Of a stretch of 64,000 bases of DNA, positions 56,627 through 59,769 are shown piece by piece. The stretch comes from Vairimorpha necatrix. Lineage: Eukaryota. The position numbers and the translations under genes are program-made. Location of the stretch: assembly GCA_036630325.1 (NCBI GenBank), contig CP142737.1, positions 62,001 to 126,000 of the forward strand, read 5' to 3'. A model generated the notes under the pieces. It had not been told where the DNA came from, did no database searches, and saw only the letters and a list, made by a program, of their open reading frames with translations. Each line of letters starts with the position of its first letter. The first letter of the stretch is position 1.

Positions 56627-59600
56627 TGTTATAATCAGTAATAATATTAAACCCCAATTATGTTAAGCACTTATATGGGGGCGATACCTAAAGAAGAGTT
56701 CACAAGAGAGGACTGTGGCCAAGTGGTCAGAAAGATGTTACAGGAGTTAGAGCGTATATTGTATGAATTGGATTTGAGAGATGTAGATAGAGTGAAATGG
56801 AAGAGTGAGCTGTTCAAGTTGGCTTCGATGGATTTAAAAGATTTTATTGTGAGAAATATCAAAAAGGAAGAAAATATTGAAGGAATAAGGAAGAAGCTAT
56901 TGTTAAGGATTAAGGAAGTAGAGGAAAAAGAAAAGATATATGAGGAAATGAGAAAAATTATTTCTAGGACTATAAATGAAGAAATTAGTAGAGAACAACC
57001 AAGACAAAAATCGAGAGTACCGAGATGCTTCTATTGTGATAGACAAGGGCATAGGGTGTTTGAATGCAGACTGAAGATTAATAGAGATAATTATTATAAA
57101 AAGAATAACAAGGATAACAGTTGCAAAATGGAAGTAGGTAGTGAATCAGAGTCAAGTCAGGAGCGAGATTTTAGAAGATCAAAAAGAGGACTTAGAGTCA
57201 AATTTGAGAAAAATCAAAAAGAATATGCCGTTAAAGAGGAGAGTAAGAGAATCAGATTAAATTTAGATAAGTATGCTAAGAGTTTTGGAGAGGTTTTTAA
57301 GTTAGGAAAAGAGGAGATAAAATATTGTAAACTGGAAAAATGTAAAATTAATACTGAAGCGGGTATGAAGGTATTTAAAAAGGGACAAATGGTTCCGCAG
57401 GCGTTGATAAAAGATACAGAGCTACATCTAGAAGATTTATTAAAAAGGAAAGTGATAAGAGAGTCAAATTCAAGTTGGAGGAATCCTATAAGGTCAATCA
57501 GAAAGCCAAATGGTGAGATAAGACTGGTTAGTAATTTGATGGCATTGAACGATATTGTACAAAAGGACGAGTATAGATTGTCTAACATAAGAGATGTTGT
57601 AAGAGCTACACAAGGTGCAAAATATATGACGGTTTTCGACTTAAAAGAGGCCTTCTATAGTATTGAGATAGAGGAGGAGGATAAACATAAGACGGCGTTT
57701 GATTTTAATGGCAAGGTTTATGAATGGAACTCTATGGTTATGGGATATAAGAATAGCCCGCAGATATTGCAGAGAATTATGGATAGGATTTTTAGAGATA
57801 TGAAAGGCAAAGGAGTAGAGGTGTATATGGACGATATTGTGTTGTACAGCCGAACGATAGGAGAACACGAGCAATTAGTGAAAAGGGTATTAAATAGACT
57901 GAAGGAAAATAATTTGAAGCTGAATGCAAATAAAGTTCAGTTTTGTCAACGGGAAGTTAAATTATTGGGAGTCACTTTAAATGGAGAAGATATAATACCG
58001 TCAGAGATAAAGAAAAATGAAGCCCTAGAGTTTCCGATACCAACATGCGTGTCAGATGTAAGAAGATTTTTCGGAATGACGGGTTGGTTCAGAGATTTTA
58101 TTAAGAATTACGCTGGATTGACAGTTAGGTTGACAGATAGTTTAAAAGGGAAGAATGATAATTGGAAGTGGACGGATGATATGAAAAACGAGTTTAATAA
58201 TTTAAAAGAAGTATTGAAAGGCCTAGGAAAGCTGCAAATAGCAGACTATGATAAAGAATTTTTGTTGAGGACTGACGCTAGTAATGTAGGCATGGGCGCA
58301 GTACTGTTACAGAAAAATAATCAAGGAGAATGGGTGCCAGTACAGTGGGCGTCTAAGAAGTTTACCGTTACGGAAGTTAATTATGGTATATCAGAAAAAG
58401 AAATGTACGCAGTTTTTTGGGGCGTTAAAAAGTTTGAATATGAATTAAGAGGTAGGAAATTTAGAATAGAAACTGATCATAAAGCGTTGGGCGAAATAAG
58501 AAACAAGCCCGACTTTAAGAATGCTAGAATTAATAGATGGGTCGAGAAGATTCAGGAATTTGATTTCGTGATAGAATATAGAACTCCAGAAAATATGGTC
58601 GTAGCCGATGCGCTAAGTAGGGTATATACAAAAGAAAAAGATGCAAAGAAAAAGAGAAATGAAACACGCCGTGATAGACAAAAAGAAGGGAAAAGAAATA
58701 AGCATGTAAAAATTGTAGAAGGTAAAGAATACTGGGTATTTGATAGTGGTAGAGAAGGCGAGATGCCTTTGGAACAAGACAGAGAGAGATTAATAATGGA
58801 TTGTCATGTAAATTTGAGCCACAGAAGCAGAACAACGGTATATTATGAGTTGAGGAAACAGTATTATTGGCCAGGAATTAAGGATCAGATCGAAAAGGTC
58901 CTTAAGAATTGCGAGACTTGTCAGATTTTTAATAGAAAAACGAGTGGCGGTACTGATTTAGTGAACACGACAAGATATTTAGAGAAGGTTGGCTTAGATT
59001 TAATAGAATTTAGGGATGAGAAAGCGTTTATTGTTTTGGCAGTTGATTACTTTACAAGGAGATTATGGGGCAGAGTATTGAAGAGCAAGCACGCATCTGG
59101 AATTGCCGAATTTATCAAGGATTTGTGTAAACAGGGTAGAAAACCAGAGGAAATCATTACGGATAATGGTAAAGAGTTTTGCAACGAAAAAGTTACCGAG
59201 CTATGTAGAAATTTGGATATTAGTCATAGAAAGGTCAGCGTTGAGTCGCACAGAAGTAATGGAAGAGTAGAAAGAGTTATTAGAACTGTAAGAGATAGTA
59301 TTTTAAAGAGCCAAAAAGAAAAATTCGAGAACAAGGTTTATGAAGCTATTGAGAAATATAATTTAAGTTTTCATGCTGGTATTAAGTGCACGCCGGTAGA
59401 AGCTTTAACCGATAATACAGGAAATGTTAGTATGGAGAATAGTCCAGAGGGAAAGTATGCGCAACAGTTTAAAAGTTGGTTTAGAGAAAAGTTCAAAAGG
59501 AACCAGATAGTTAGGGTTGCCAAGAATGAGAATTTAAAGGGATGTAGTAAGTATAGTAAAGGTCGATTTTTAGACATGGGAAGAGTGATTGAGCTATGTC

Positions 59601-59769
59601 CAGGGGATTCATATATAGTGAGATTAGAGAATAAGAGGTTGGTGAAAAAAAGGCATTATGATCTTAAGGGTGTAGGGGATTTAAAGTATGTTGAAGGAGA
59701 CTAACCGTCTGGAGGGGGGATGTTATAATCAGTAATAATATTAAACCCCAATTATGTTAAGCACTTATA
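56627..59769 (+). mobile_element. Intact Ty3/gypsy LTR retrotransposon, 3143 bp, with 49-bp LTRs
   Basis: Identical LTRs 56627-56675 and 59721-59769 (TG..TA); CTAAA TSD; PBS TGGGGGCGA at 56676; PPT GGAGGGGGGA at 59711-59720. Confidence 0.95.
56660..59704 (+). CDS. Single-ORF polyprotein, 1014 aa: short Gag, CCHC, RT, RNase H, integrase; no protease seen
   Basis: CFYCDRQGHRVFEC, FDLKEAFY, YMDD, TDASNVGMGAVL, H..SH..CETC, GLD..ITDNG..GRVER. Confidence 0.93.
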   Translation: MLSTYMGAIPKEEFTREDCGQVVRKMLQELERILYELDLRDVDRVKWKSELFKLASMDLKDFIVRNIKKEENIEGIRKKLLLRIKEVEEKEKIYEEMRKIISRTINEEISREQPRQKSRVPRCFYCDRQGHRVFECRLKINRDNYYKKNNKDNSCKMEVGSESESSQERDFRRSKRGLRVKFEKNQKEYAVKEESKRIRLNLDKYAKSFGEVFKLGKEEIKYCKLEKCKINTEAGMKVFKKGQMVPQALIKDTELHLEDLLKRKVIRESNSSWRNPIRSIRKPNGEIRLVSNLMALNDIVQKDEYRLSNIRDVVRATQGAKYMTVFDLKEAFYSIEIEEEDKHKTAFDFNGKVYEWNSMVMGYKNSPQILQRIMDRIFRDMKGKGVEVYMDDIVLYSRTIGEHEQLVKRVLNRLKENNLKLNANKVQFCQREVKLLGVTLNGEDIIPSEIKKNEALEFPIPTCVSDVRRFFGMTGWFRDFIKNYAGLTVRLTDSLKGKNDNWKWTDDMKNEFNNLKEVLKGLGKLQIADYDKEFLLRTDASNVGMGAVLLQKNNQGEWVPVQWASKKFTVTEVNYGISEKEMYAVFWGVKKFEYELRGRKFRIETDHKALGEIRNKPDFKNARINRWVEKIQEFDFVIEYRTPENMVVADALSRVYTKEKDAKKKRNETRRDRQKEGKRNKHVKIVEGKEYWVFDSGREGEMPLEQDRERLIMDCHVNLSHRSRTTVYYELRKQYYWPGIKDQIEKVLKNCETCQIFNRKTSGGTDLVNTTRYLEKVGLDLIEFRDEKAFIVLAVDYFTRRLWGRVLKSKHASGIAEFIKDLCKQGRKPEEIITDNGKEFCNEKVTELCRNLDISHRKVSVESHRSNGRVERVIRTVRDSILKSQKEKFENKVYEAIEKYNLSFHAGIKCTPVEALTDNTGNVSMENSPEGKYAQQFKSWFREKFKRNQIVRVAKNENLKGCSKYSKGRFLDMGRVIELCPGDSYIVRLENKRLVKKRHYDLKGVGDLKYVEGD

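What the first reader, a model, noticed from the sequence alone, without database searches (positions are those of the whole stretch)
56627..59769. Recently inserted Ty3/gypsy element with no aspartic protease and a very short Gag
Seen: one uninterrupted 1014-aa ORF, identical LTRs and an intact CTAAA TSD point to recent transposition. Only 72 charged residues (57068-57283) separate the CCHC knuckle from the pre-RT FGEVF segment, with no D[ST]G motif. The same interval in the 29568 element is 177 aa and contains LLDTGAD. Gag before the knuckle is only ~120 aa. Established: Ty3/gypsy elements need PR to mature RT and IN. Inference: this lineage borrows protease in trans (for example from the 29568 family), uses a host protease, or works as an unprocessed polyprotein.
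Basis: partly seen in the sequence, partly recalled or inferred. Interest (0 to 1): 0.8.

Follow-up and report, generated by a model that had tools for sequence, protein, structure and literature searches.

The report
Protease-less mini gypsy retrotransposon of microsporidia
This is an intact 3.1-kb Ty3/gypsy-type retrotransposon from a whole microsporidian lineage that has lost its protease, kept only a stub of Gag and shrunk its terminal repeats to about 40-50 bases, which raises the question of how such an element matures its enzymes.

Summary
Window 56627-59769 is a 3143-bp LTR retrotransposon. It has 49-nt identical LTRs, a CTAAA target-site duplication, a TGG-type primer-binding site, a polypurine tract and one 1014-aa ORF: helical mini-Gag, CCHC knuckle, 79-aa mostly disordered linker, then RT, RNase H and integrase. 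No retropepsin was found by Pfam, profile-profile comparison, two AlphaFold models with fold searches, or in other frames.

This is not a one-off deletion. About 30 relatives (40-72% identity, about 1000 aa; named ones from Nosema, Vairimorpha and Enteropsectra) share the architecture. They form one group nested among protease-bearing microsporidian gypsy elements. Relatives also have 38-39-nt LTRs and a start codon straddling the LTR/PBS junction.

Contigs of two public runs show several different flanks at the LTR ends. Differences between copies are biased towards synonymous changes (dN/dS about 0.2).

A family member ("Aalg retro L", 3127 bp, 50-bp LTR) sits in a 2014 supplementary table. 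That paper's main text never uses the word protease.

Most likely this is an autonomous lineage whose polyprotein works uncleaved. Cleavage by a host protease or by a co-resident element's protease is not excluded.

The parts
56622..56626 (+). Left target-site duplication, CTAAA
   Evidence: Read directly. The same 5 nt follow the 3' LTR.
56627..56675 (+). 5' mini-LTR, 49 nt, TGTTA...TTATA. It carries an AT-rich stretch, a CCCC box at position 26 and an ATG at position 34.
   Evidence: 100% identical to 59721-59769, with 0 chance matches in shuffles. Relatives have 38-39-nt LTRs that also start TGTT and carry a CCC box.
56676..56688 (+). Candidate primer-binding site, TGGGGGCGATACC, lying inside the coding sequence. 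The second ATG (56675-56677) straddles the LTR/PBS junction.
   Evidence: Read directly. The same ATG-at-junction design is seen in L003 and in the window's other element, and family N-termini share 'M(A/G)'. The primer tRNA was not identified; the only tRNA in the window, Arg-CCT, does not fit.
56660..59704 (+). Single polyprotein ORF of 1014 aa (P0001), stop TAA at 59702-59704
   Evidence: Pfam finds RVT_1, RT_RNaseH, Integrase_H2C2 and rve, and no protease family at E<=1.
56711..56995 (+). Mini-Gag helical domain, aa 18-112 (helices 18-39, 47-54, 57-66, 73-112)
   Evidence: AlphaFold2 pLDDT is about 85-94 over this part. hhalign matches aa 26-81 to the Gag of protease-bearing relatives at Prob 95%, E 3e-8. 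Structural matches are only generic helical hairpins, Z 5-6.
57026..57067 (+). CCHC zinc knuckle, aa 123-136 (CFYCDRQGHRVFEC)
   Evidence: C123, C126, H131 and C136 are invariant in 23 of 23 family members. Pfam zf-CCHC is weak in this copy (E 0.056) but is hit by 17 of 23 members.
57068..57304 (+). Knuckle-to-RT linker, aa 137-215, where a protease would sit. It is charged, poorly conserved and mostly low-confidence: one helix, a small beta-hairpin, one short helix.
   Evidence: No column is invariant between C136 and C228. Its length varies from 46 to 100 aa in the family. pLDDT is low. There is no Pfam protease hit for the linker alone and no hhalign match to PR columns.
57305..58159 (+). 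Reverse transcriptase, aa about 216-500 (Pfam RVT_1 280-440; YMDD at 389-392)
   Evidence: The structural start of RT lies at aa about 216-220: model residue 220 aligns to HIV-1 RT residue 1, 217 to Ty3 RT 37, 218 to foamy PR-RT 144. Y389, D391 and D392 are invariant.
58169..58561 (+). RNase H, aa 504-634
   Evidence: Pfam RT_RNaseH E 2.7e-32 and RT_RNaseH_2 E 2.3e-27.
58757..59701 (+). Integrase, aa about 700-1014: H2C2 zinc domain 706-759, DDE core 779-901, conserved C-terminal part
   Evidence: Pfam Integrase_H2C2 E 3.6e-14 and rve E 6.2e-10. H716, H721, C751, C754, D780, D835 and E871 are invariant in 23 sequences.
59711..59720 (+). Polypurine tract, GGAGGGGGGA, directly before the 3' LTR
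   Evidence: Read directly. The block GAGACT..CCGTCT..AGG.GGGGA+TGTT is conserved in the window, L003 and L005 although the proteins are only about 50% identical.
59721..59769 (+). 3' mini-LTR, 49 nt
59770..59774 (+). Right target-site duplication, CTAAA

Best explanation
This is a full-length member of a microsporidian clade of Ty3/gypsy LTR retrotransposons that has been stripped down. The retropepsin is gone. Gag is reduced to a helical domain of about 100 aa plus one CCHC knuckle. The LTRs are 38-49 nt, the whole element is 3.0-3.15 kb, and the ORF starts inside the 5' LTR. In one relative the ORF also ends inside the 3' LTR.

Shown here: the anatomy, the family-wide and derived loss of PR, the presence of multiple insertions, and purifying selection on the polyprotein.

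Inferred: transcription starts from the AT-rich/CCC-box part of the mini-LTR with almost no 5' UTR. Translation begins at the ATG in the LTR or at the ATG on the LTR/PBS junction. The PBS and PPT work as in other LTR elements.

The mechanism I think most likely, at about 0.5, is that the element is autonomous and needs no retroviral protease. The Gag-NC-RT-RH-IN polyprotein would act as one multifunctional chain, held together by flexible charged linkers. It would bind its own RNA through the knuckle, reverse-transcribe it in a small ribonucleoprotein rather than a matured capsid, and integrate the cDNA with its fused integrase.
For: Anatomy.

No protease:
- Pfam at E<=1 finds none in P0001.
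- None of 23 family members hits one, among the 25 of 52 families listed.
- None is found in other frames or in the linker alone.
- hhalign of the family's upstream region against that of 12 PR-bearing relatives matches only Gag aa 26-81 (Prob 95%) and the knuckle.
- Two AF2 models give a mostly low-confidence linker with one helix, a beta-hairpin and a short helix.
- A VIA search over 48,161 chains returns only RT-fingers matches, on aa 216-300.

Family-wide and derived loss:
- The knuckle-to-RT gap is 46-100 aa in 27 PR-less sequences, against 121-225 aa (one 525) in relatives that have both a canonical knuckle and D[ST]G.
- The PR-less rows form one group (SH-like 98 in FastTree on 63 rows; SH-aLRT 98 for 22 rows in IQ-TREE). 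That group sits inside a 100%-supported group that also holds PR-bearing elements.

Autonomy is suggested by three results. RT, RH and IN catalytic residues are invariant across 23 sequences down to 40% identity. Against the main copy in run X1, 7 changed codons are synonymous and 6 are not, where 18.8% of sites are synonymous (binomial p 0.005, dN/dS about 0.2). Contigs break at the LTR edges and continue into at least three different flanks.

There are no conserved residues in the linker that could mark a specific cleavage site.

From established knowledge (recalled): RT-IN fusions such as the ASLV beta subunit and the foamy-virus PR-RT fusion are enzymatically active, so fused Pol domains can work.
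Against: No expression or protein data exist here. No run on record as RNA holds the element, so whether the polyprotein is cleaved is untested.

In every Ty3/gypsy, Ty1/copia and retroviral system studied, PR is needed for transposition (recalled, not tested here).

A PR-bearing, intact gypsy element sits 23 kb away in the same window, so a helper is available in this genome.

A 1:1 Gag:Pol ratio and half a capsid protein are unprecedented for a working LTR element.

The trees are quick or FastTree searches. The position of P0104, a further PR-less sequence, is unresolved (support 49).

The selection test rests on 13 changed codons.
Confidence: 0.5

Rival explanations
1. Trans-complementation. 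The polyprotein is cut by the retropepsin of a co-resident PR-bearing gypsy element, such as the 29568 family, so the lineage is a partly non-autonomous parasite of other retrotransposons.
For: An intact PR-bearing element with identical LTRs lies in the same window (29568-33422; RVP E 1.6e-7). The mini-Gag keeps a segment homologous to the Gag of PR-bearing relatives, which could allow co-assembly.
Against: The PR-less group is old and diverse (down to 40% identity, branch lengths 0.3-1) and occurs in several genera. Over that span it has kept RT, RH and IN under constraint, whereas typical helper-dependent LTR derivatives lose all enzymes (recalled). The linker has no conserved motif that a specific helper PR could recognise. 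The mini-Gag is only 14% identical to its relatives over 56 columns.
Confidence: 0.2
2. Host-protease processing. A cellular protease cuts the exposed, charged, disordered linkers and releases Gag-NC, RT-RH and IN.
For: The knuckle-RT linker is 47% D/E/K/R, has basic pairs, and is predicted to be mostly disordered, which makes it an accessible substrate.
Against: No conserved site exists in the linker. The stretch between RNase H and integrase is conserved rather than linker-like, with nearly invariant K678, K681, H682, W692, D695, G697 and P703. There is no direct evidence for any cleavage.
Confidence: 0.2
3. One-off internal deletion of PR in a dead copy of a normal gypsy element.
For: None beyond the absence of PR in this copy.
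Against: The same architecture is seen in about 30 relatives at 40-72% identity. Contigs from two other runs cover 56656-58456 without gaps. The 1014-codon ORF is intact and substitutions are biased towards synonymous changes.
Confidence: 0.02
4. A cryptic or non-retropepsin protease is hidden in the Gag or linker region.
For: aa 163-215 is barely covered by the structural searches. A small beta-hairpin (aa 171-181) is predicted at pLDDT about 74.
Against: Only 79 aa separate the knuckle from the structural start of RT, and in relatives as few as 46. There are no invariant residues there, no Pfam or hhalign signal and no protease among the fold matches.
Confidence: 0.03

Closest known systems
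'Aalg retro L' of Anncaliia algerae (Parisot et al. 2014, PMC4202319, Supplementary Tables S1/S2 and File S1)
   Same: It is listed as a complete LTR retrotransposon with a 50-bp LTR, ORF 32-3049 and total length 3127 bp, at 19, 20 and 45 copies in three strains. The start of its consensus, read by eye, has the same design: TGTTA start, a CCC box directly before an ATG in the LTR, an LTR ending ACA followed by TGGCG, a second ATG on the junction, and a CCHC knuckle.
   Different: It comes from a different genus. I did not put its sequence through any tool, so membership rests on reading only. The paper's main text has 0 occurrences of 'protease' and does not comment on the mini-LTR or the missing PR. 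I could not see its Fig. 1A.
Protease-bearing microsporidian Ty3/gypsy elements (the window's 29568-33422 element; Nematocida P0043/P0044; P0169, P0195)
   Same: They share the single gag-pol ORF, the RT-RH-IN order, short LTRs (124 nt in the window's other element) and a start codon in the LTR plus an ATG on the LTR/PBS junction. They are the nearest outgroups in the trees.
   Different: They carry a D[ST]G retropepsin (Pfam RVP, Asp_protease_2 or gag-asp_proteas) and mostly a Gag of about 240 aa before the knuckle. P0195 shows that a 975-aa element can still keep PR.
Ty3 of yeast and other Metaviridae (recalled knowledge)
   Same: LTR-PBS...PPT-LTR layout, 5-bp TSD, CCHC nucleocapsid, RT-RH-IN order. 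The RT fingers superpose on Ty3 RT (Z 5.1-5.6).
   Different: Ty3 has a two-lobed capsid protein, a protease that is required for maturation, separate gag and pol frames, and LTRs of several hundred bases (recalled).
Retroelements that naturally lack a protease: DIRS/Ngaro elements, hepadnaviruses, non-LTR (LINE) elements (recalled knowledge)
   Same: They work with an unprocessed multifunctional polymerase protein. LINE ORF1 proteins combine a coiled coil with nucleic-acid binding, much like this mini-Gag.
   Different: None of them has a DDE integrase with LTRs and a TSD. This element is a Ty3/gypsy by RT-RH-IN sequence and order.
Non-autonomous LTR derivatives (TRIM, LARD, TR-GAG; abstract of PMC4350172 seen in the listing)
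   Same: Short, with reduced coding content.
   Different: Those lack RT and IN. This element keeps both, with invariant catalytic residues.

Membership tests
Ty3/gypsy (Metaviridae) LTR retrotransposon | Direct long terminal repeats flanked by a 4-6-bp target-site duplication | tested here: met
   49-nt identical repeats and a CTAAA TSD. The repeat length is far below the usual range.
Ty3/gypsy (Metaviridae) LTR retrotransposon | PBS starting TGG next to the 5' LTR and a polypurine tract next to the 3' LTR | tested here: met
   TGGGGGCGATACC at 56676 and GGAGGGGGGA at 59711-59720. The PPT block is conserved in L003 and L005. The primer tRNA was not identified.
Ty3/gypsy (Metaviridae) LTR retrotransposon | pol domain order RT, RNase H, integrase, with Ty3/gypsy-type RT | tested here: met
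   Pfam RVT_1 280-440, RT_RNaseH 529-634, Integrase_H2C2 706-759, rve 779-857. The element groups with gypsy polyproteins in the trees.
Ty3/gypsy (Metaviridae) LTR retrotransposon | Aspartic protease (D[ST]G retropepsin) between Gag and RT | tested here: not met
   No Pfam hit at E<=1, no D[ST]G, and no hhalign match to PR columns. Only 79 aa separate the knuckle from the structural start of RT.
Ty3/gypsy (Metaviridae) LTR retrotransposon | Gag with a capsid domain and CCHC nucleocapsid | tested here: inconclusive
   The knuckle is invariant. Only aa 26-81 match relatives' Gag. There is no significant capsid fold match (Arc C-lobe only at Foldseek E 1.7). Atlas leads to Gag families all score below 0.9.
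Retropepsin fold hidden in the linker | A beta-rich domain of about 90-100 aa with a catalytic Asp | tested here: inconclusive
   The models show one helix, a two-stranded hairpin and a short helix. No protease appears among the fold matches, but aa 163-215 is barely covered by those searches.
Non-autonomous LTR element (TRIM/LARD/TR-GAG) | No RT or integrase coding capacity | tested here: not met
   The RT, RH and IN domains are complete.
DIRS/Ngaro-type protease-less retroelements | Tyrosine recombinase instead of a DDE integrase, and no TSD | tested here: not met
   A DDE integrase (rve, D780/D835/E871) and a 5-bp TSD are present.

The most novel reading that the evidence does not exclude
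A whole clade of Ty3/gypsy elements has become a protease-free, capsid-poor, LINE-like retrotransposon. One uncleaved 115-120-kDa Gag-NC-RT-RH-IN protein would carry out RNA binding, tRNA-primed reverse transcription and integration, from a 3.0-3.15-kb element with 38-49-nt LTRs that double as promoter, 5' coding sequence and, in some members, 3' coding sequence. As far as I recall, that would make these the smallest autonomous LTR retrotransposons. It would also show that proteolytic maturation is dispensable for the LTR-retroelement life cycle.
Probability: 0.4. Interest if true: 0.8.

Novelty: new variant of a known kind. Interest (0 to 1): 0.65.

Why it matters
Proteolytic maturation by a retropepsin is treated as a fixed part of the life cycle of retroviruses and LTR retrotransposons. 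A diverse lineage that is under selection, present in many copies and lacking a protease is a natural experiment on whether that step can be dispensed with, replaced by host enzymes or borrowed.

The element also shows how far an LTR element can be compacted. The LTRs of 38-49 nt must still hold promoter, R and U5 functions, the coding sequence overlaps the LTR, PBS and PPT, and Gag is a stub. This parallels microsporidian genome reduction.

There are practical consequences too. LTR finders that require LTRs of about 100 nt or more would miss the family (their usual settings are recalled, not checked). Its contigs are already filed inside bacterial MAGs.

Tried and rejected
- **Host genome:** none is held, so no genome-wide census of copies, tRNAs or helper elements was possible.
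- **Earlier findings of this scan:** nothing by sequence or by place.
- **Self-association of Gag aa 1-140, two copies:** the verdict was 'no answer'. It is not evidence either way.
- **Sequencing runs:** no RNA holder is listed, so TSS, poly(A) site and expression could not be examined. Runs X3 and X4 hold only small pieces.
- **Joints:** no empty-site or other joint was seen in contigs (table 5).
- **Foldseek against the PDB:** no hit at E<=0.001 for either model. No retropepsin was listed, and foamy PR-RT rows align through their RT part only.
- **Mini-Gag fold:** matches are generic helical hairpins at Z 5-6, below the level that means anything for helical models.
- **ESM Atlas on aa 1-215:** only Gag/CCHC-type leads below 0.9.
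- **Other collections:** the viral-contig scan found nothing. Of the four metagenome loci only L003 has both ends. L001, L002 and L004 are truncated, and the L002 upstream region is unrelated.
- **Alignments:** the pairwise 5'-end DNA alignment A4 was misaligned and is not used. A first MAFFT run timed out and was redone with a faster setting.
- **PBS:** it does not match the only tRNA in the window. A self-priming match (CCCCA in the LTR against TGGGG) is only 5 nt and I dropped it.
- **Literature:** seven full-text searches (one search was a syntax error) found no description of protease-less Ty3/gypsy elements. PMC2474625 (passages read) says 'nearly all' N. bombycis elements have Gag-PR-RT-RH-IN, citing Xu et al. 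2006. That paper is not held and may mention exceptions.
- **dN/dS between distant family members:** not attempted, because at 40-70% protein identity synonymous sites would be saturated.
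Full report
**1. What is in the sequence**

Window 56627-59769 is bounded by two 49-nt direct repeats (56627-56675 and 59721-59769). They are 100% identical, and no chance match is expected in shuffles. The repeats are flanked by CTAAA on both sides, at 56622-56626 and 59770-59774.

Directly after the 5' repeat comes TGGGGGCGATACC, a TGG-type primer-binding-site candidate. Directly before the 3' repeat comes GGAGGGGGGA, a polypurine tract.

One ORF of 1014 codons runs from 56660 to 59704. 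Its first ATG is at position 34 of the 49-nt LTR, 5 nt after a CCCC box. A second ATG straddles the LTR/PBS junction. The element has 35.2% G+C against 27.1% for the window.

The knuckle is at aa 123-136. There are 72 residues (47% D/E/K/R) up to FGEVF, against 177 residues with LLDTGAD in the 29664-33293 polyprotein.

**2. Domain content**

Pfam finds RVT_1 (280-440, E 8e-37), the two RT-RNase H families (504-634), Integrase_H2C2 (706-759), rve (779-857) and a weak zf-CCHC. It finds no protease family at E<=1. The window's other element, scanned in the same call, gives RVP at 290-375 with E 1.6e-7.

BLASTP aligns P0001 from residue 203 to P0002 from residue 406. No protease family is found in any other reading frame of the element or in the linker scanned alone.

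**3. Structure of the N-terminal 300 residues**

I made an AlphaFold2 model using 19 relatives as the alignment. It gives a confident helical domain (helices 18-39, 47-54, 57-66, 73-112; pLDDT about 85-94), then the knuckle, then a stretch mostly below pLDDT 50-65 up to about residue 215.

A second model of aa 117-300, with 26 relatives, shows only one helix (137-151), a two-stranded hairpin (171-181) and a short helix (202-208) before the RT.

Structural alignment places the start of the RT fingers at aa 216-220. HIV-1 RT residue 1 aligns to model residue 220, Ty3 RT 37 to 217, and foamy-virus PR-RT 144 (that is, after its protease) to 218. CaMV RT 22-113 aligns to aa 216-300.

So 79 residues lie between the knuckle and RT. 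Searching 48,161 representative chains returned only RT matches, at Z 3.1-6.0. Foldseek gave nothing at E<=0.001. The mini-Gag matches only generic helical hairpins at Z 5-6, which is not meaningful for helical models.

**4. The absence of a protease is family-wide**

A search of 5.8 billion proteins gave 74 hits. The 40 best (P0003-P0042, 34-72% identity) list no protease Pfam family. The full-length ones among them are mostly 950-1050 aa and sit on contigs of about 3.0-3.2 kb. The named ones come from Nosema granulosis, Vairimorpha necatrix and Enteropsectra breve, plus one from a 'Clostridium sp.' MAG.

In an alignment of 23 members, the four knuckle residues and the RT, RNase H and integrase catalytic residues are invariant. 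No column is invariant between C136 and C228.

- 23 of 23 have the knuckle.
- 22 of 23 have no D[ST]G upstream of RT. The exception is a DSG in a Ser-rich linker.
- Scanned one by one against Pfam at E<=1, 23 of 23 hit RVT_1, RNase H, Integrase_H2C2 and rve. None hits a retropepsin family among the 25 families listed of 52. The two weak 'Peptidase_A17' hits (E>=0.056) belong to a family that, in P0104, maps onto the RNase H region.

A profile search of 1.84 billion representatives added more distant members: P0040, P0079, P0083, P0094, P0104 and P0148. It also added protease-bearing relatives.

The knuckle-to-RT distance is 46-100 aa in 27 protease-less sequences. It is 121-225 aa (one 525) in relatives that have a canonical knuckle and D[ST]G. 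P0079 has 190 aa there, but this is pure E/K/R low complexity.

Profile-profile comparison of the family's upstream region (23 sequences) with that of 12 protease-bearing relatives matched only Gag aa 26-81 (Prob 95%, E 3e-8) and the knuckle. Nothing aligned to the protease columns.

**5. The loss is derived**

I built trees on 709 RT-RH-IN columns. In FastTree (63 rows) the protease-less sequences fall into one 29-row group with SH-like support 98. Its neighbours are P0102+P0110 and P0104, all inside a 100%-supported group with protease-bearing elements (Nematocida P0043/P0044, P0169, P0170, P0195 and others). The window's other element, P0002, lies further out.

IQ-TREE (quick search, LG+G4, 42 rows) gives the same picture. 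22 protease-less rows form one group at SH-aLRT 98. With P0104 included, a single change still fits, but the support is only 49.

I left out P0069, which has no residues upstream of the RT landmark. For the second tree I kept 42 of the 63 rows.

In the sister pair, P0110 has DTGS. P0102 has a protease-like domain (Pfam E 2e-4) with DPG in place of D[ST]G. P0195 is 975 aa and still has a protease, so compaction alone does not force the loss.

**6. The miniature LTR is also a family trait**

- Metagenome contig L003 carries a decayed relative (about 50% identity). It has 39-nt LTRs (TGTTG...GACA), a TTATA TSD, the PPT AAGGCGGGGA, and an ATG on the LTR/PBS junction.
- L005 is a 3024-nt contig filed in a bacterial MAG. 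It shows the PPT GGAGGAGGGGA and a 38-nt 3' LTR, and the ORF's stop codon lies inside that LTR.
- The block GAGACT..CCGTCT..AGG.GGGGA-TGTT is conserved at the DNA level in all three.
- Family N-termini share 'M(A/G)', which corresponds to the junction ATG.
- The protease-bearing element at 29568-33422 has 124-nt LTRs, a TTTTT TSD and the same two-ATG arrangement. ORF/LTR overlap is therefore a wider habit of microsporidian gypsy elements.

That a CCC motif just upstream of start codons is a microsporidian promoter signal is my recollection.

**7. Copies and selection**

Two public runs from different studies hold 78% and 65% of the sampled words.

Their contigs break at the LTR edges. Loose ends at 56627/56630, 56676 and 59721 lead into at least three different flanking sequences. 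One X1 contig covers 56656-58456 with 8 differences and no gap. Only 1-2-nt indels are seen, and no insertion appears in the Gag-RT interval. Depth figures from contigs are not copy numbers and I do not use them.

Against the main X1 copy, 7 changed codons are synonymous and 6 are not, while only 18.8% of sites are synonymous (binomial p 0.005, dN/dS about 0.2).

Variants seen only in X2 give 13 synonymous and 12 non-synonymous codons, including two stop codons. Decayed copies therefore exist too.

**8. What is already in print**

Parisot et al. 2014 (PMC4202319) describe three microsporidia-specific Ty3/gypsy groups with a single polyprotein. I read passages, Supplementary Tables S1 and part of S2, and the start of one consensus sequence. 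The word 'protease' does not occur in the main text.

Their Table S1 lists 'Aalg retro L' as complete, with a 50-bp LTR, ORF 32-3049 and total length 3127 bp. Table S2 gives 19, 20 and 45 copies in three strains. By eye, the start of its consensus has the same design as this element. I did not run it through any tool.

The other complete A. algerae LTR elements in that table, one 2584-bp entry (retro AU) aside, have LTRs of 45-272 bp and lengths of 3.6-4.3 kb.

PMC2474625 (passages read) says 'nearly all' N. bombycis elements encode Gag, protease, RT, RNase H and integrase, citing Xu et al. 2006. That paper is not held.

Seven searches found no paper describing protease-less Ty3/gypsy elements. 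The family has therefore been catalogued. As far as these searches reach, its defining oddities have not been described.

**9. How it most likely works**

Shown: the anatomy, the derived and shared loss of protease and of about half of Gag, multiple insertions, and constraint on the polyprotein.

Inferred: the lineage is autonomous and independent of a retropepsin. I favour an uncleaved multifunctional polyprotein (about 0.5) for four reasons.
- The lineage has kept RT, RNase H and integrase intact over deep divergence in several genera, while helper-dependent LTR derivatives usually lose all enzymes.
- The linker shows no conserved cleavage motif.
- With one ORF the Gag:Pol ratio is fixed at 1:1, and the capsid protein is truncated, so a matured capsid seems unlikely anyway.
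- Fused RT-IN and PR-RT proteins are active in other retroelements (recalled).

Cleavage of the disordered linker by a host protease (0.2), or by the protease of a co-resident element such as the intact one 23 kb away (0.2), is not excluded. A one-off deletion (0.02) is refuted. A cryptic protease (0.03) is very unlikely.

**10. Verdict**

This is a new variant of a known kind: a Ty3/gypsy lineage that fails one defining feature, the protease, and stretches two others, LTR length and Gag. The mechanism is open, and it can be tested with ordinary experiments.

Noticed in passing
window 29568-33422: A second, protease-bearing gypsy element. It has 124-nt identical LTRs (TG...CA), a TTTTT TSD, the PPT GAGGGGG, the PBS TGGCGACAACGAC and an intact 1209-aa ORF whose first ATG (29664) lies inside the 5' LTR. 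A second ATG sits exactly on the LTR/PBS junction.
   Followed up: partly
L005:2690-2770: In this relative the polyprotein's stop codon lies inside the 38-nt 3' LTR and the PPT is coding sequence, so the ORF overlaps the 3' LTR. The contig lacks the 5' end.
   Followed up: partly
L005-L008 (genome contigs): Contigs carrying these microsporidian-type retrotransposons are filed inside bacterial MAGs labelled Clostridium sp. and Turicibacter sp. This is probably eukaryotic contamination of the bins.
   Followed up: no
P0102 aa 246-334 (sister lineage of the protease-less group): It has a protease-like domain (Pfam gag-asp_proteas E 2e-4) with DPG where its sister P0110 has DTG. This may be an intermediate or a decaying protease next to the lineage that lost it.
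   Followed up: partly
P0079 aa 105-294: This protease-less relative has a 190-aa knuckle-to-RT linker made of pure E/K/R low-complexity sequence. The linker can therefore expand as well as shrink.
   Followed up: no
window 56674-56675 and 59768-59769: The LTR ends in TA rather than the canonical CA seen in L003, L005 and the window's other element, yet the copy has a clean 5-bp TSD.
   Followed up: no
window 57644 and 57743 (variants in run X2): A lower-depth contig of run X2 carries two stop codons (K329*, G362*) and 1-nt deletions, so decayed copies coexist with intact ones.
   Followed up: partly
window 41363-41434: tRNA-Arg(CCT) is the only tRNA gene in the window. Its 3' end does not match either element's PBS.
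   Followed up: yes
window 56583-56626: The element sits 38 bp downstream of the stop codon of a 312-aa ORF (55645-56583), in an AT-rich spacer. Target preference was not examined.
   Followed up: no
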